A stretch of 26,844 nt of DNA, taken from NCBI GenBank assembly GCA_028717985.1, contig JAQUMS010000001.1, positions 1 through 26,844 on the forward strand, read 5' to 3'. Source of the DNA: Candidatus Omnitrophota bacterium (GTDB lineage Bacteria > Omnitrophota > Gorgyraeia > Gygaellales > Profunditerraquicolaceae). The notes under the pieces were generated by a model, which did no database searches, was not told the DNA's origin, and saw only the letters and a program-made list of their open reading frames with translations. Below are positions 3,301 to 12,300 of the stretch, piece by piece (position 1 is the first letter of the stretch; each line of letters opens with the position of its first letter). The position numbers and the translations under genes were made by a program.

Positions 3301-6300
3301 AACCCTGTTTGAATTTCCTGTCCCATTCTCTTTTAAGATTCCTGTCAAACTCACTTTCATCTCCTCCGTCATTTTCCCTGTTTTGAGCAATAATGCCTCC
3401 TTGAGGCATGAAACCAGAAGCAGAAAATGCGGCGCCTTTTTCCGGCGCTAAAGGATACTGTATGCCCACGGCAGAAATACCGGCAATTTCTTCCAGCCGG
3501 GCCAACACGGAAGGCACCGAGTAAAGTTCATCAGTATTGAAAATTTTCCCTTCCGCTTTACGATAATTACGGGTATACCCGATAAGCAATTCAACGGTTT
3601 TCGGCGTCACCACCCATTCTTCATCAAAAACATATCCCCTTTTCGCTAACGCGCGGTGTATCGCGCCGAGCATATGGCTGCCAAAACCCGTCACGGTTTT
3701 TAATTGCGGCTGTTTAAGCTGATCTTTAATAATCCGTGCCAACACGTCGCTGTTGACTTCGCCTATCATAAAAAGCTGAAGCACCCGCTTCAATACATCA
3801 TCATTTTCCCGAAGATATTCAAAAATATCGGCATATTCCTGATCTCTCACGCTTAACGACTGTTTCCACTTTTCAGAAACATCCCCTGATTGGATTTCCA
3901 GGAATACCGCCATAATGGGATTATGCGTAATTTCATTGATGTTAAAATTTGATTTTTGCACTTTGATGATGGAAACGGCATTTCTAATCATAACGGCAAA
4001 CAAATAATCCTCTTTCATCAGATCTTGCAGCACGGCATATTGTTTTTCGGATACCACAGCCCTGGTTTCAGCATACACAGAATGGTACGGAAGATTTTCA
4101 TCAAGAGCTCTCAGCACATACCGATACGGGCCTACAATGCCGCTCGCCTGTGCAAGAGTTAATGATGATTTGTGAGCAATAATATCCTTGGCTTTATTAA
4201 GGATAATGAGCCTCTTATCCCAGAAGCCTATACCAAGAGCGGAATCAGCCTGAACGATCAATTCTTTAAGCTCGTCATTCTTTTTAACTTCGATCAATAG
4301 AGCTTCATACTCGGCGCTTGTCATTAAATTTTGCGCTTCGATATCCAAACCGCGATACGATACGTTATCAGCTAAACCTTCGAATATATATATATACCTG
4401 CCAAACAATTTTCGTGCAGACCAAAAATCTATTCTTTTGTCGAGCGCTAAAACTAAAGATGCTTTTTTGATTAACGATCCCGTGATATCGCGTTGATGAA
4501 TATAAATATTTCGCATAGCGTTGTTCACGATCTTGGTAAACTCAATATCCCGCTTTTTGTTCCCCAGAATATTTTCATATTCATCCTGGCTGATATTATC
4601 CCAGGCACAATGGTCTAATTCCTGATACGCCAGGGACCGGGAAAGTCCGCGTAAAACAAAATACGTATTCCCGATCAATTTGACGGCATCTTCCGGAGAC
4701 ATATTCGCGTTCTTTTTCGCGGCCAATACCTGGGCCCTCCCCATTAATATCTTTCTCCAGCCGTTCTTGGCAATAACCATCTGGTCGGCATGTATAATAT
4801 AATCAGCAAACATTTCATCCCGTTTCATTTCACCGAGCAAAAATTCATATGACGCTTTTACAAGGATTTTCTGCCTGCCCACAGGAGATATTTCAAACTG
4901 CTGGGCATGCGCCAGAGAATGAATAATAAGATAATTGTGGTTAATTTTAGCCTTAGCCTGAGTTATGCCCACTATTTCTTCGTCATTCACAATTTTGCGG
5001 GCACTGGCTAAAATTTTATTTTTGATGCCTTCCATCCTTATATTTATAGCCTTGCCGGAGGCGCGGACTATTTTTCTTCCGAAACCGGCGTCATCTACTA
5101 TCTCCCGGGCAAGATAATAATATATCCCTGCGGACAGTTGGCGCCGCGCGTAATCGCTTAGGGAAGAATACGGCATGCCTTCCGCTAAAATCCTCATTAC
5201 CTCAAAATGATACCCGATCAAACCTTCAGCCAACGCCCTGCTGATCTTACCTTCCTGTAAAAGCAGTAAATCCGCCTTGTCCTCCAAAACCTGTTTGTAA
5301 TATTCCGGAGTCACATCGATACCGGAGATACTTCCAGTTACCGCGCTCCTGAAAACAGGATTTCCAGTTAATGTTTCAACTATTTCATTATACGTATGGA
5401 ATGAAACCATTTCTAAACCGTTGCTGTGTAATTCCACGTATTTCAAGCCGCGGGCCAAGCCGAGTAAAACATAGGCATAATTGCCGATAAGTTTAAGACT
5501 ATCTTTAAGAATCAACTTCCCGTTTTCCGAGTCCGCCAATATCTTTGCTCTTTCCCAAACAGACTCGTGTTTAACCTTATCAGCCAAAACCATAGTGTCA
5601 GCTTCTGTTATAACCATTCCGAAAAGTTTATCGTTTACCATCTCGTCCTGCAAATACTCATAGGAATCCTCAGCTATGGTATTACGAAAATCTTCGCGCA
5701 AAGAAGAATACGGAAGGGAAACCGCAAGGGCATGTATAATATAATAGTATCTGCCGACGATATCCCGGGCCTCAAGAATATTCATCACCTCGCCTTTTGC
5801 CTTGATAGCGAGAGCTTTATCCGAAAAGGTTTTCTTTATTTGTAAAATCTTTATATTAACAATCTTGTGGGAGGCGGTTCTAATTGTTTTCTTAAAATGC
5901 GCATCAACGCCCATCAGGCTCAAAAGATATTCATAATTCTCCATTGCGATTTTTCTCTGGGCGCCTTTCTGAAGGCTGTCATACGCTGTACCGTTAGCCA
6001 GCGCCATAATAATATTCAACTGGTATCTGGAAATTAACTTCACGGCTTCCACTTCGCTCACCGGCGCGCGTAAAGCCCCAAGAATATCCGCTTTTTTGAG
6101 CAAAGTATCTTTAATATTCATCACCATTTTCTTGCGTGTTACAAGTATTTCATTCCCGGATTGGTTTTTGATACCGGAAGTAATAACGGTATTTTTATCA
6201 GCTATTCCACCGTCAAAAAACCGTTCGGGGCTTTCAAGGTCAACTTCGCATTTAAATCCGGATTGGGCAGGTTCACAGCTAAACATCCTGTAATATTGGA

Positions 6301-9300
6301 TCCGGGAAATAAGGCGGACTTCAAGCTTTTCAAGCAAAGCGACAAATTTCTTATATTCAGGAATTTCATGTGAACCGACGTATTCAAGATAATCCATCAT
6401 ATATTTTGAATCGGGCATATCTTCAAAAAGCTTGCGCAGGTAATTCATATAATCATGAAAAGAAACACCGCCCTTGCCGTTTACCTGTTTCATGGTAAAG
6501 AGAAAATCCTGTAATCCCGCGCTGTCCGCCATCCATCTGCCGCGAAGCGTATAAAATTCAAACGGTTTCATGTCGAATTTCCCTGAATTAAGCACGGTTT
6601 CCGCATTATCCAAGGTTGCTTTATTGATAAATGCTTCAACCAGGTTTTCTTCCATTTTCTCGTTTAATTTCTCAACAAATCTGAACAGAAAATAAGCTTT
6701 CAGGAAAGACGGCACGGGCTCCTGGGCAATTGTCTGTAAATACGCCATGATCTCTTCCCATCCCTTAACCCCTTTGAACATTGCGTCCATATATTTAATA
6801 AAATCCATAAAATCATTTTCAATAACAGGTTCGGCATGACGGTTAGCTATAAGATTTTTTAATACGGTTTCAAAACTCTTCAACCCGCTCGTCTCCGCGG
6901 TTACCGGACCGGAAACCGTTCTAAACGAAAAACTGTTGACGTTTTTATTCCCGATCATAAGAGTAGCCATCTGTTCTATCGTTAAACCGTTGACCCATGA
7001 TTCCACCAATCGATATTCGGAGCGCCGGGTAAACTGTTTCAGGAGCTCAAGCAGTTCTTTCATTTTTTCCTCGTCACTGATCTGCTTTGACCCGATGAAA
7101 CGCATATGTTTCACGAGTATATCTTTCGTGACGCATCCTTCGCATAAACCCGCGATATACCGGATAAAATGATAAAACGGCGTCCGGATCGTTGTCCCAT
7201 TTTTAAGAAGCATATTCGCCTTATTCATAAAACCGATTATACCCGCGGAATTAGCATACTGCATGCCTTCCGAAGTTTCGAAACCAAAGGGGAACATGCC
7301 GAATTTACCGAATAAAATATTCCGGGCATCGTTTACCTTGAAATCAACGGGGCACAAAGTTTCTATCAATTCATCTCCTTCAAGAGGATCATATTCTTCG
7401 GGAACAATCTCGAAAGACCTTACCTGCTGCCATAGGCCTGACGTCGCGCGGACCGTTCCTTTGAACGGCAAAGGAAAATCTTCCGGGATTGTGAGAGAAT
7501 ATTCAATCACGTTGTCATAAATCTTCCTCACGGGAGAGAACTTCAATCTGATCCCATGATCATTCACCAGTTCAACAAAAATGCTGTCTTCAGGTACCCT
7601 CGAACTGCCGAATGGCGCAAACTCAGGATCAACGCTGATACTAAGCGTTAAAATCAGATTCTTTGCCAGGTTTCCGACCTCTTTCTTTTTACCCATCAGA
7701 TAAAATTCATTTTCATCTTTGAAAATTGAGATCTCTCCCCGGGATGTTGTTGAAGTTAATGTGAGATATTTACTATCTATGCCGATTTCTCCTACCACAC
7801 GGGGATTTACAACCGCCCGTTTTCCTCTGAAACCGTTGTGCCAGAAACGTAAATACGCGGCCGCGGTATAACGAGCGTCAACAAAGCCGCTAATTTTATA
7901 GGCGTATGATTGTAATTGAGAAAGTTCGCCTGACTGATACTGTTCGTTCGCCCATAAGACTACTTTCAAATAAGATTCGGCGCTATCTTTTTCCGGCATT
8001 AAAACATTCCCGGTCATCTTTTCGCGGTTGACCAAATCACCCATAAAAGGAATCATACCTTCCCAATATGGAGTAGCCAACTGTAACCCGCCATTAGCCC
8101 CTATATCAGATTCAGTTGACCCGGCGGCCTCAGTTTCCCTGTCTGAATCCTGGATCTGAACATCGGTAGCGGCTAACGCCTTTCTTTGATCGTCAATGCT
8201 AAACTGGCTCTTAAAAATAAACCGCCCGGAATACACGTCCGGTTCTTTTTCTTTTTTAGATTTTAGATCAGCCTCCAGAGCTTCCAATTCCCCTCTCATT
8301 ACCGGATTCCAACGGGCAACTCCATAAATCACTACCTGTATCCCGGCTTTTACCATAGCTTCGATATTTACGTTGGTAAAAGCACGCTTTCGGCCGGCTT
8401 TTTCCGGAACAAGCCTGCCGAAATAACCGACAACCATCTGATACTGATTTAAACCCATTTCTTTTTTAACATATGATTTTGCCGCTAAAATTTCCAGCGG
8501 CGTAGGATGCAGATAATCACGTGAACCGGTTTTGATCAACGCATCCCTGAAAAATTCCGAAGAATACACGTAATTATCACCGTTAGTAACGCCGAAAAGA
8601 TCAACTGCCGGATCATATTTGTTTACTTCAAACGCGTGAACCGCCGCCACAGCTTTTGAGACATCGGAAGCCCGGACGCCGCCGCTGGTCAAATCCCAGA
8701 CAACTTTCCAGGTGCCGTAATCGTCTACAAAAATGTGCAGGAACAACCACAACCATTCATCCGGAATACCCGCCTTGCGTAAGAAGTTCTTTCCAAATTC
8801 AAAATCATCCGCCCACGCACGGTTATAATACGTGTGAGTAGTCCCGGAGAACAGCGCCGAGTTCATTATTTCAAATGCCTCATCCTTATCCGGCGCGGGA
8901 GCAATACTTTCTTTCTTACTATAAAAAGCCTTTCTAAAGGCGGCAACAGGCAATGTCTGCGCGTCGTTAGAATCTACAACACATGATTTATATTCCTCAT
9001 GAAGCAGTTCTTTTTCATGTTTTTTCTCAACTTCGCGTTTTCTGATCAATTCCAAAGCCGCTTTGTTGAAAAATTCGGTAAACTCCCAAATCGACGCGGG
9101 GCAATCGCACGTGCTGTATTCATAAAGGATGTTAATAATACGGCAGTGATAATTCTCGGGAATATCCCTTATTAAATAAATCGGAATCAGATTAACAGTA
9201 TCACCTCTCTTTACATTCAGGTATCCCTGGGCAACTTCAAACCGGACTTTACATCCCTGAATGAATGTTTCCATTGTTGCGTACGGTTTGATATCGGTTA

Positions 9301-12300
9301 TCGGATTGGGAAGTGATCCGTAATCAACCGTGTACAAATTGCCAAAACTATCCCTTGAATGCAAATACCAGGGAGCAACATAAATGCTATCCGCTCCTAA
9401 TTCAAACATAGCGTTTCCATGATACAATTCAACCCGGCCCAGGCCGCCGGCCATAGGGGAAATTTCCGCTGTTAAATGGTAAATACTTCTCCCTGTCAGT
9501 TCATACGCCTGCATTTTCAACCAATCCTGCACAGCACGTTCATAATCAAGATTTAAAGCAATTGCATCTTCTAACGCGGAGTTTCTCGGACCGCTTAAAA
9601 TCCAATCAGCCATAGTTTTACGGGATGATTCATCAAAAAACATTATTGCCCGGAGAATCACGTGATTTACCTCAACCGGATATCTGCCCCACAAAGCGGT
9701 AACTTTAGCGTATTCCGCGATCACATTAAGAAATTCTTCTTTGCCATGAATAAACCCTTCAGCAAGATCAACATTGATATCTTCCACGTTTCTGGACCAT
9801 ACCGCGTATAACCGGGCATTAAGATCAACGGTAACTTTATCTTCTTCAACGCTAAAATCTTTCCGGTTGCCGCTTTTTGCATTAACAATCAAACCTCTGC
9901 GGCGCAGGCCGTTCAACAAAGAAATCACGTGATCTCTATCCCAGGTAAAACCATGTGCTTCAAAAACATCTTTGGTTTTCTTTAAAATCCTATTTACGGT
10001 AATCTGGCGTGACGATCTTTCATTTAATTCCGAGATTGCCCATACCACCATAAAAGATTTAACCCATTCCGGATCATGAATACCGCGAATAGATTGTTTA
10101 TCCGGGAATGGCCAGGGGATTTCATAACTTCTCTGTCCCGCTTCCGTTCCCGTTGAATAGGCATTCGCAGGAGATATTACATTCCCATTAAGATATCCCG
10201 GATACGTTTCAATACCTCCATCAGACTGCTTCCTCTGCATGATATCTTTGATACGTTCCAAAAATTCATCGTAATCAGCTAAACCCAAATATTGTTTCCC
10301 ATCTATATGAACAACAGAAACGCCCGCTATCTTTAATATTACAGAAATATCGGGAAGAATAACTTCTTCATCCCCCAACGCAACGCGTGTTTGATATTCC
10401 TTAGCTTCTTTTTGAGTAAAATAGAACAAGGTTAATTTTTTATGGTCATATTTAATAAAGAATGTTTTAGGCCTCATCCCGGCTTCTATTTCCATTTCTT
10501 TTAAGACTTTCTGATCAGGTTGAACTGCCGTTATAATGATCCCGCCTTTGCCTTTTCCATTATAAATTTCTTCAAGAGAAGACCCTTCCAGTTGAGATCT
10601 GGAATCTTCGGCCGTTATACCGTTAGCCATCTGGTGGTTAAATCTTTTAAGATTTTCAATTCTTTTCCAGGTAGCAGGAGTGGAAGGAATACGCATTGTC
10701 CTCACAACTGGCTTTTCCCCCCCGTCTCTATAATTTATATCTTTTACTATCTTACTATTAACAAAATTGTCCTTCCCCATTCTGTCCTCAAAAAATTCAG
10801 GGCTATTTTTGTCTCCTAGTTGTAAAAAATCATTTAAATTATTTTCAATATCCAACAAAATCTTATTAATTAATAACAGCTTTTCAGTTTCTAAATTTAA
10901 TTTTGAAATACTCTTTAGAGTAATATATTTATTTATTAAAAAATTTATTTTCAATAGCCTTTCAATATCGTTTTTATTGAATTTTGCTTCGGGGAATCTT
11001 TTTTTATACATATATCGAATCCATTCTGATTTAGCTCGTGCGATAAAAGACAAAGTTGATTCACGTATAATACCAAGTTTACGATCTTCATAAATTAAAC
11101 TTATAGATTTCAATTCTGTAGTAAATATTTTCTTAAAATATGCATCTGAATTATTAATTTGCTGCTGTATACCCGCAGCAATACTTCCGTCAAATATTCC
11201 ATCCCATTCATCTAATTCTTTTTCTTCTCTCTGAGAAAGAGTATAATATCTTTCCACTTCAGCAGGCATCTGTCCGTACACTAATTCCCCTATTTCTGCA
11301 CCCCTTATAAAGGTACGAGCAATAATCTCCCTCCCAAACTCGTGTCCTGGGACAAAAGAGCGGAACCAACAAGAATGAAGACTTATAATATCTTTTTCGA
11401 TTTCGACATCAGCTTTGCCCAAAATTACATTTTTTGAAAAATAATATACTTGGGCTGAAGATAATTTTTCATCATAAAATTTCCACGCTTCAAATATCTG
11501 ATGACTTTCAGGAAACTCCCCATAATTACTAAACATTGGCAATAAACCTGTTTCCTCCAGAAAACCATACAAGATTCCTCGTGTTTCTTTAATGTCCTCT
11601 TTTCCTTCCCCACCGTCTTCTCCAGAGAAATCTTTTACTATTTCATGCAAGATACGAATCATACTTTCTTCTTTATACGCATATTTTCCGTTTATCTCGG
11701 AAAGCTTCACATCGGATACTTTGACAAAATACGATTTAATTCCTTTTCGTGCTAATTCCTCCTTAAGAGTATCCTTATTAAATTCCGCGGGATCTTCGGG
11801 AACAATTTTACTGTATTTTAATTCTCCAATCGCGATCCGTTTTTGGATTTCCGGTTGCTCCAAAATTTTCCTCTGTTCTTCTTTCAGCGCTTGAAACTTC
11901 CAATACGTTGCGGCATCAATCTCCTGAGGATCAAACAGAACTATATAATCACAGATATCCTTAAATTTAAAACTTTTGAAGGAAGTATTCATCCGAATGG
12001 AGCGTTCAATCAACTCTATCTGTTGTATTACAGAAAGACCTTTACTTTCCGTATCCTGCATTATTTTAAACATAAAAATTCTGGGGATATCTTTTCTGGC
12101 TGCCATTTCTTGAGGGATGCCTTCCGTCATCAAATTCGGCAGTAAAGATGTCACAAAACTACAATCGCCAAAAATAATCGCCTGTTTCGTTGAACGTATA
12201 CCTTCAATAGCTTCGAGATTCGCATATGAATATTCACCGGATTTCCGAAACGCATATGTCCTTATTTTTCCCTGTTGTACTCCTACTGCTTTCATTTCAA

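What the first reader, a model, noticed from the sequence alone, without database searches (positions are those of the whole stretch)
7442..9490. Glycogen-phosphorylase-like domain with Asp at the PLP-lysine site and GT5-like motifs
Seen: phosphorylase signatures (YLIRDIPEN, NDAQ, TTHT, TNG, C-terminal beta domain), but EAAGSTESD (8105-8131) where phosphorylases have EASGTS/GxMK. Known: that Lys forms the Schiff base with PLP, which GT35 enzymes require, and the equivalent segment in GT4 enzymes is the E-x7-E nucleotide-sugar motif. The N-terminus (HLTAEISPMAGGLG) and GRLVPEK also resemble GT5/GT4. Inference: a PLP-independent, possibly NDP-sugar-using member intermediate between synthases and phosphorylases, or a glucan-binding pseudoenzyme.
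Basis: partly seen in the sequence, partly recalled or inferred. Interest (0 to 1): 0.8.

Follow-up and report, generated by a model that had tools for sequence, protein, structure and literature searches.

The report
Cofactor-less cousin of glycogen phosphorylase
One module of a giant bacterial protein belongs to an undescribed enzyme family that sits between glycogen synthases and glycogen phosphorylases: it keeps their shared catalytic residues but never has the lysine that holds the phosphorylases' vitamin-B6 cofactor, so it may show what phosphorylases were like before they adopted that cofactor.

The parts
6206..10222 (-). Whole DGG-bounded module of the giant ORF (P0001 residues 5541-6879): N-extension, GT-B core, beta-domain, helical tail
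   Evidence: DGG motifs at residues 5541 and 6877. Stand-alone homologs align over N-extension, core and beta-domain.
9506..10213 (-). Family-specific N-terminal extension (residues 5544-5779) with conserved P.E...P.L.A and LLML...W motifs
   Evidence: Aligned with stand-alone homologs. No Pfam hit. No relation to the N-termini of GT35, GT5 or GT4 by hhalign.
7808..9505 (-). GT-B catalytic core (residues 5780-6345)
9434..9448 (-). GGLGR glycine loop (G5799-R5803). The Arg replaces the Asp of GT5 KxGGLxD and matches classical GT35 GGLGR. The GT5 Lys position (5797) is Met here and never conserved as Lys.
   Evidence: Roles of the GT5 Lys and Asp in ribose binding: PMC6086201.
8957..8968 (-). 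NDAQ (N5959 D5960 Q5962), equivalent to HDWH of GT5 and NDTH of GT35
8831..8842 (-). TTHT: invariant His-6003 and Thr-6004 (GT35-type H-T; GT5 has H-N)
8579..8590 (-). VTNG: invariant Asn-6087 (= EcGS N246, MalP N450)
8399..8419 (-). GRLVPEK: invariant Arg-6143 and Lys-6148, the phosphate-binding pair (= EcGS R300/K305, MalP R535/K540); Glu-6147 is family-specific
   Evidence: AtSS4 Arg332/Lys337 bind the ADP phosphates (PMC6086201).
8105..8131 (-). EAAGSTESD: catalytic Glu-6238 (= EcGS E377, MalP E638), Gly-6241, Thr-6243, invariant Glu-6244, and Asp-6246 at the PLP-Lys position
7418..7807 (-). C-terminal Ig-like beta-sandwich domain (residues 6346-6475), present in about 20 of the family members fetched
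6215..7417 (-). Helical tail of the module (residues 6476-6876), function unknown
   Evidence: No Pfam hit above cut-off.

Best explanation
The domain is a catalytically competent, PLP-independent, retaining alpha-glucosyltransferase. It belongs to a distinct, undescribed GT-B family that branches between GT5 glycogen/starch synthases and GT35 phosphorylases, most likely on the GT35 stem. Shown: the fold; the family's separateness; the retention of the glucose-subsite and phosphate-binding residues common to GT5 and GT35 (Asp-5960, His-6003, Asn-6087, Arg-6143, Lys-6148, Glu-6238); and the complete absence of a PLP-binding Lys. Inferred: it transfers glucose between a phosphate-type leaving group and an alpha-1,4-glucan end by the same front-face mechanism as its neighbours. 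Most likely (about even odds) the donor is a nucleotide-glucose. In that reading the base stacks on Phe-6214 (F/W in 103 of 114). The ribose is held by the C-domain acidic residues Glu-6244 and Asp-6246, in the manner of the GT4 E-x7-E motif, rather than by the N-domain Lys and Asp that GT5 uses. The beta-sandwich that follows the core may hold the glucan. Within the giant protein it sits with PGI-like, HAD-mutase-like, GDP-hexose-phosphorylase-like and canonical glycogen-synthase modules, consistent with a sugar-phosphate/glucan assembly line.
Against: The two residues that bind the ADP ribose in GT5 (Lys and Asp of KxGGLxD) are replaced (position 18 is A/L/P/E/V; position 24 is Arg). The hydrophobic partner of the adenine sandwich is Ser. 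The family adds two active-site carboxylates (Glu-6147, Glu-6244) where GT5 has Gln, which is odd for binding a dianionic NDP. Eight of 21 stand-alone homologs have Sec-type signal peptides, and exported copies would not meet NDP-sugars. AU tests do not reject family+GT5 (p 0.35) or GT5+GT35 (p 0.41). Gene neighbourhoods of stand-alone homologs show no glycogen genes.
Confidence: 0.5

Rival explanations
1. Cofactor-free alpha-glucan phosphorylase. The enzyme uses orthophosphate and Glc-1-P like GT35, but a protein carboxylate (invariant Glu-6244, next to the helix N-terminus that holds the PLP 5'-phosphate in GT35) takes over the acid/base role of the PLP phosphate. This would suit copies exported unfolded through Sec, which could not carry a cofactor and would meet phosphate but not NDP-sugars.
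For: The C-terminal catalytic segment is of GT35 type: same Ser-to-Glu spacing, EA(A/S)G, and N-G after the Lys position. The motif segment scores 45.5 against GT35c and 19 against GT5. GGLGR and H-T are as in GT35. The tree favours a sister relation to GT35. GT5's ribose-binding Lys and Asp are lost (PMC6086201). Eight of 21 stand-alone homologs have signal peptides. A C-terminal beta domain is present as in clade-2 GPs (PMC12912991). In GT35 the PLP 5'-phosphate is the acid/base (PMC11046441).
Against: No precedent for a PLP-free GT35-type phosphorylase. A carboxylate is a poor mimic of a phosphate that must shuttle a proton to orthophosphate. The aromatic that stacks on adenine or PLP is still conserved, which suggests a planar ligand is still bound. 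The geometry could not be checked. The giant protein's neighbouring modules use cytoplasmic metabolites.
Confidence: 0.25
2. Merely a fast-evolving GT5 subfamily. On this view the GT35-like motifs are convergent or ancestral leftovers, the sister-to-GT35 position is a tree artefact, and the enzyme is an ordinary ADP- or UDP-glucose glycogen synthase. This rival concerns classification and overlaps with the best explanation on function.
For: The best structural and profile match is GT5. Pfam sees only PF08323, at 24.3 bits. NCBI names homologs 'glycogen/starch synthase'. The AU test does not reject family+GT5 (p 0.35). G-x-T-(Q/E) resembles GT5 GLTQ.
Against: The defining KxGGL Lys and the following Asp are missing. 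The family is far from GT4 (32) whereas GT5 is close to it (125). Both half-domains independently group with GT35. Long-branch attraction would pull GT35 towards GT4, not towards the family. There is a score gap of at least 329 versus at most 46 bits to canonical GT5.
Confidence: 0.3
3. Catalytically dead glucan-binding or scaffold module (pseudoenzyme) within the giant protein.
For: It lacks the cofactor Lys of GT35 and the KxGGL Lys of GT5. It sits in a giant protein rich in repeats and spacers. It has a possible CBM-like beta domain.
Against: Thirteen invariant positions in 114 sequences at about 35% identity coincide with the catalytic residues of GT5 and GT35. The relocation of the catalytic Glu is always compensated, at least 6 times. 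Stand-alone versions exist in several phyla.
Confidence: 0.07

Closest known systems
GT5 bacterial/plant glycogen and starch synthases (E. coli GlgA, PDB 2QZS; Arabidopsis SS4, 6GNE)
   Different: No KxGGL Lys. Arg instead of the Asp that binds ribose. H-T instead of H-N. Two extra residues between Ser and the catalytic Glu. Glu instead of Gln at two active-site positions. No PF00534 match in the C-domain. About 90 residues longer. Extra N-extension and beta-domain.
GT35 alpha-glucan-family (clade 2) phosphorylases (Segatella copri GP, PDB 9L6I/20YR; Omnitrophota homologs)
   Same: Profile score 158. The C-domain profile is closest (84). Same S-x4-E-A-(S/A)-G...N-G catalytic segment. H-T and T-N-G motifs. 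A beta-sheet domain follows the core. Favoured sister group in trees (PMC12912991).
GT4 retaining glycosyltransferases (E-x7-E motif)
   Different: Profile similarity is not significant (32, E 3e-3). The second acidic residue is not conserved. The invariant Glu is at +6, not +8.
'GT5 / starch-synthase domains' reported in Omnitrophota giant proteins (West-Roberts et al. 2023, bioRxiv 10.1101/2023.11.21.568195; 10.64898/2026.06.07.730766)
   Same: Same kind of host protein and same Pfam label (PF08323). Those papers list GT5 as one of the commonest domains in these giants.
   Different: Those surveys work at Pfam level. They do not separate this family from canonical synthase modules (one of which lies at the C-terminal end of this same ORF). 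They also do not note the GT35-type motif or the missing Lys.

Membership tests
GT35 (glycogen/starch/maltodextrin phosphorylase) | Lys forming the Schiff base with PLP in the E-A-S-G-T-x-x-x-K segment | tested here: not met
   Asp-6246 is at that column. 0 of 114 family members have Lys; 26 of 26 GT35 controls do.
GT35 (glycogen/starch/maltodextrin phosphorylase) | Match to Pfam PF00343 above its gathering score | tested here: not met
   No PF00343 hit even at E up to 10. One relative (G008:C1) gets a weak partial hit.
GT35 (glycogen/starch/maltodextrin phosphorylase) | Phosphate-binding Arg and Lys five residues apart, and glucose-subsite His, Asn, Glu | tested here: met
   R6143/K6148, H6003, N6087 and E6238 align with MalP R535/K540, H346, N450 and E638.
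GT35 (glycogen/starch/maltodextrin phosphorylase) | Branches inside the GT35 clade | tested here: not met
   GT35a+GT35c form a 100/100 clade that excludes the family. The family is the favoured sister group (99/95), but the alternatives are not rejected by AU.
GT35 (glycogen/starch/maltodextrin phosphorylase) | Phosphorolysis of alpha-1,4-glucan / PLP bound | not testable with these tools
   Needs purified protein.
GT5 (glycogen/starch synthase) | Pfam PF08323 N-terminal catalytic domain | tested here: met
   24.3 bits against a cut-off of 22.7, partial (model positions 2-156 of 239). Marginal.
GT5 (glycogen/starch synthase) | K-x-G-G-L Lys and the following Asp that bind the ADP ribose | tested here: not met
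   Position 18 is Met here (A/L/P/E/V in the family). Position 24 is Arg in 105 of 114. Residue roles from PMC6086201.
GT5 (glycogen/starch synthase) | Catalytic Glu in S-x-x-E-P-C-G | tested here: inconclusive
   The Glu is present (E6238 = EcGS E377), but with two extra residues after the Ser, in an E-A-A-G context. It is moved three residues in 46 of 114 members.
GT5 (glycogen/starch synthase) | Closest solved structures are GT5 | tested here: met
GT5 (glycogen/starch synthase) | Branches inside the GT5 clade | tested here: not met
   GT5 (16 rows, including this ORF's own C-terminal synthase module and the genome's GlgA) is a 100/99 clade without the family.
GT4 (E-x7-E retaining transferases) | E-x7-E motif and PF00534 C-domain | tested here: not met
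   E-x7-D here; the second position is D/N/H/A/P in the family. No PF00534 hit. hhalign 32, not significant.

The most novel reading that the evidence does not exclude
This family preserves the pre-cofactor state of the phosphorylase lineage. On this reading it is a living intermediate showing that GT35 phosphorylases arose from nucleotide-sugar synthases. The acidic ribose-binding residue (Glu in GT4, Asp/Asn here) was replaced by a Lys that tethers PLP as a built-in mimic of the nucleotide's ribose-phosphate. Alternatively, it is the first phosphorylase-type enzyme that does the chemistry with a protein carboxylate instead of PLP.
Probability: 0.3. Interest if true: 0.85.

Novelty: new variant of a known kind. 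Interest (0 to 1): 0.66.

Why it matters
Why glycogen phosphorylase uses PLP, and uses only its phosphate, is a classic puzzle, as is how that dependence arose from nucleotide-sugar enzymes. A well-populated clade with a GT35-type catalytic segment, no cofactor Lys and intact catalytic residues gives a concrete protein on which to test it. The tests are donor specificity, Asp-to-Lys and Glu-to-Gln swaps, and a structure with ligands. The finding also means that many 'GT5 / glycogen synthase' labels on Omnitrophota giant proteins, and on stand-alone MAG proteins from PVC-group and deltaproteobacterial lineages, cover at least two different enzyme families. The repeated, always-compensated relocation of the catalytic Glu is a clean natural example of active-site residue migration.

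Tried and rejected
1. One search is superseded. My first profile-profile table used a GT5 reference set in which 14 of 32 ORFs were the wrong gene (longest ORF in the locus). Its statement that GT5 and GT35 'barely see each other' was wrong for GT35a. One search, with cleaned sets, replaces it.
2. Ligand co-fold with ADP. The tool did not fold it, so there is no evidence either way.
3. Gene neighbourhoods of stand-alone homologs P0010, P0003 and P0017 show no glycogen or sugar-nucleotide genes and no conserved operon.
4. Pfam on 11 multi-domain relatives gave only weak PF08323 and one sub-threshold ROK hit.
5. Pfam, NCBIfam and PDB sequence searches with the single domain gave nothing beyond PF08323.
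6. The ESM Atlas feature search of the beta-domain and N-extension gave scores below 0.9, which are leads only.
7. The N-extension compared with the N-termini of GT35, GT5 and GT4 showed no similarity.
8. Chimera idea (GT5 N-half fused to a GT35 C-half): rejected, because both halves give the same tree.
9. I first took the weak PF00343 hits (model positions 526-591) in other giant ORFs to be members of this family. The family profile confirmed only G008:C1, so the others remain unassigned.
10. AU tests could not secure the deep branching order.
11. The search for another Lys that could bind PLP found only columns 343, 347 and 369, all of which have other known equivalents.
Full report
**Context.** The window is a whole 26.8-kb contig of a 1.63-Mb, 80%-complete MAG. 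It consists of a single open frame on the minus strand, 8,947 codons long and open at both ends. The frame is divided by recurring (N/R/S/E)-D-G-G junctions into enzyme-like modules: three CofD/YvcK-like, DUF218, HEAT, HAD, and a canonical GT5+GT1 glycogen synthase near the C-terminus. Earlier notes of this scan and two preprints identify such proteins as the giant multi-enzyme proteins of Candidatus Omnitrophota. In those proteins 'GT5 / starch synthase' (PF08323) is among the commonest Pfam labels. The finding corresponds to residues about 5785-6467 of this frame, inside the module bounded by DGG at 5541 and 6877.

**Observation.** All the quoted strings are present at the quoted coordinates. 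Pfam sees only a marginal, partial PF08323 match (24.3 bits; cut-off 22.7) and no PF00343 even at E up to 10. NCBIfam and a PDB sequence search with the single domain gave nothing informative.

**The family.** An exhaustive phmmer search of 1.84 billion cluster representatives returned 232 proteins at E up to 1e-3 (147 at E up to 1e-30). Most are 1,000-7,300 aa long and none is a canonical synthase or phosphorylase. A word-indexed search added stand-alone proteins of 800-1,100 aa. These come from MAGs named as Deltaproteobacteria, Omnitrophica, Aureabacteria/Auribacterota, Alphaproteobacteria and Rectinemataceae, and some are auto-named 'glycogen/starch synthase'. In 61 sampled Omnitrophota genomes, true members score at least 329 bits with the family profile and canonical GT5 at most 46. 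Members occur in 11 genomes, one copy each, in ORFs of 1,256-9,506 aa. AlphaFold DB holds one unnamed cluster representative.

**Conservation.** In 114 aligned cores (A2) the invariant positions are E14, G20-G21-L22, V25, Q183, H224-T225, N308, R364, K369, S454 and E465 (add 5779 for ORF numbering). Profile-profile alignment maps them onto E. coli GlgA and MalP as follows:
- E14 = GlgA E9
- GGL = GlgA G17-L19 = MalP G114-L116
- D181 = GlgA D137 = MalP D308
- H224 = GlgA H161 = MalP H346
- N308 = GlgA N246 = MalP N450
- R364/K369 = GlgA R300/K305 = MalP R535/K540
- E459 = GlgA E377 = MalP E638

These are the glucose-subsite and phosphate-binding residues common to both families.

**The PLP-Lys position and the migrating Glu.** The column reads D75, N25, A6, H4, P3 and is never Lys. 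By contrast, 26 of 26 GT35 rows have Lys, 17 of 17 alpha-glucan-type GT35 of the phylum read EASGTSGMK, and 5 of 6 GT4 rows have the second Glu of E-x7-E. The genome's own GT35 fragment (contig C58) and GlgA (C162) are fully canonical. The only Lys-rich columns in the family are 343, 347 and 369, all with non-PLP equivalents in GT5 and GT35. Position 467 changes at least 15 times on a 36-member tree, so it is a tolerant site. In contrast, the catalytic Glu is either at 459 with Gly at 462 (68 sequences) or at 462 with Gly at 459 (46 sequences), and never otherwise. This coupled switch occurred at least 6 times. That pattern, together with the invariant set, argues strongly for an active enzyme.

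|---|---|---|
| AtSS4 (6GNE), GT5 | 32.3 | 460 residues, 2.7 Å, 21% identity |
| E. coli GS (2QZS), GT5 | 31.4 | |
| GBSS (6GNF), GT5 | 29.6 | |
| P. abyssi GS (2BIS), GT5 | 27.5 | |
| GT4 enzymes | 23-26 | |
| GT35 phosphorylases | 22-23 | about 490-515 residues aligned at 3.5-3.9 Å |

Foldseek gives similar E-values for both families. Its TM-score on the query side is slightly higher for GT35 (0.70-0.74) than for GT5 (0.55-0.69).

**Position between the families.** The family HMM hits PDB sequences of both kinds almost equally: AtSS4 36.5 bits, S. copri GP 34.6 and S. mutans GP 33.3. The GT5 alignment stops just before the catalytic segment, whereas the GT35 alignments run through it. With cleaned reference profiles, hhalign scores are as follows (one search is superseded):

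| Comparison | Score |
|---|---|
| family-GT5 | 188 |
| family-GT35a | 158 |
| family-GT35c | 47.5 |
| family-GT4 | 32 (not significant) |
| GT5-GT4 | 125 |
| GT5-GT35a | 96 |
| GT5-GT35c | 25 (not significant) |

The N-half is nearer GT5 (135 versus 79). The C-half is nearer GT35a (84 versus 64). The motif segment is nearest classical GT35 (45.5, against 19 for GT5).

GT35-type characters are:
- G-G-L-G-R, where GT5 has Asp at the last position
- N-D
- H-T, where GT5 has H-N
- T-N-G
- the S-x4-E spacing
- E-A-(A/S)-G
- N-G four residues after the Lys position

GT5-type characters are the YLID strand, Q183 (as in plant HDWQ) and G-x-T-(Q/E).

**Phylogeny.** A maximum-likelihood tree was built with LG+C20+F+G4 PMSF on 82 rows and 513 columns, rooted on four GT4 rows. 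It gives (GT4,(GT5,(family,(GT35a,GT35c)))). Support for family+GT35 is 99 (ultrafast bootstrap) and 95 (SH-aLRT), and every group is at 100/99 or better. The same grouping appears with the N-half alone (92), with the C-half alone (81) and without the long-branched classical GT35 (95), so the core is not a chimera. It is also the opposite of what attraction between the long GT35 and GT4 branches would produce. However, AU tests do not reject family+GT5 (delta lnL 5.4, p 0.35) or GT5+GT35 (delta lnL 3.7, p 0.41). The placement is therefore favoured, not proven. The reference sets come almost entirely from one phylum plus E. coli.

**Donor site.** In AtSS4 the ribose hydroxyls of ADP are held by the Lys and Asp of KxGGLxD. 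Adenine stacks between Tyr390 and Ile330. The phosphates are bound by Gly42 N, Leu416 N, Arg332 and Lys337 (PMC6086201). In the family the Lys position is A/L/P/E/V, the Asp position is Arg (105 of 114), and the Ile position is Ser/Thr. The stacking aromatic (F69, W34), the Arg/Lys pair and the G-x-T helix start are kept. Two GT5 glutamines (EcGS Q304 and Q383) are glutamates here: E368 in 110 of 114 and E465 invariant. GT35 enzymes need covalently bound PLP, whose 5'-phosphate is the acid/base (PMC11046441). In S. copri GP the cofactor sits on Lys609 (PMC12912991). From general knowledge of GT-B enzymes (my own, not tested here), an acidic residue on this helix commonly binds the nucleotide ribose diol. 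Glu-6244 and Asp-6246 could do that, which is the basis for preferring an NDP-glucose donor. The alternative is that Glu-6244 replaces the PLP phosphate in a cofactor-free phosphorylase. That would fit the Sec-type signal peptides found on 8 of 21 stand-alone homologs. I could not examine coordinates, and the ligand co-fold was not run by the tool, so this remains open.

**Verdict.** It is wrong in giving weight to the Asp itself and to the pseudoenzyme option, and it is untested on the donor. I file the domain in neither GT5 nor GT35, because defining features of both were tested and not met. It works like both in its conserved catalytic core. It is a new family-level variant of the retaining GT-B alpha-glucan enzymes.

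Noticed in passing
Proteins P0002, P0003, P0009, P0017, P0020, P0022, P0098, P0120 (stand-alone homologs, first 60 residues): Eight of 21 stand-alone family members begin with a classical Sec signal peptide (for example ...SSNIALA|EP). It is followed within a few residues by a recurring L-A-P or L-S-P motif. Exported GT-B glucan enzymes would be unusual.
   Followed up: partly
G035:C8 (15,194-aa ORF), G046:C37, G028:C24, and weak hits in G052:C78, G032:C13, G026:C22, G024:C73, G030:C56, G006:C10, G044:C14, G038:C68: Other Omnitrophota giant ORFs carry PF00343 (phosphorylase) matches from 17 to 65 bits that the family profile does not claim at E up to 1e-10. These may be further divergent phosphorylase-like modules inside giant proteins.
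   Followed up: no
G009 (1.2 Mb, about 90% complete), contig C109, 8,619-aa ORF: In this small genome no canonical GT35 or GT5 gene was found in the searches. A member of the family (725 bits) is present inside a giant ORF, and it may be the only alpha-glucan GT-B enzyme there.
   Followed up: no
window 6215-7417 (-), residues 6476-6876: The helical tail of the same module has a sub-threshold Pfam hit to the type VI effector TseH-like family (18.4 bits against a cut-off of 27, residues about 6542-6637). It is probably chance.
   Followed up: no
window 2 to about 300 (-), residues after about 8860: The last roughly 90 residues of the frame, after the canonical glycogen-synthase module and a final DGG, are strongly hydrophobic. 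They look like transmembrane segments and run off the contig end. A further hydrophobic stretch lies at about residue 1065.
   Followed up: no
G000 contigs C58 (186-941) and C162 (799-2190 of L004): The same genome encodes an ordinary alpha-glucan-type GT35 (EASGTSGMK intact; gene cut by the contig end), an ordinary GlgA (KTGGLADV, EPCGL) and five NTP-transferase-type genes. The giant protein's glucan modules therefore come on top of a normal glycogen toolkit.
   Followed up: partly
window 1-26844 (-): residues 1-40 versus 3710-3750, and 41 onwards versus 2729 onwards: Large internal duplications of modules occur within the giant ORF, with near-identical sequence at the DGG junctions. This was already noted by other readers of this window.
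   Followed up: no
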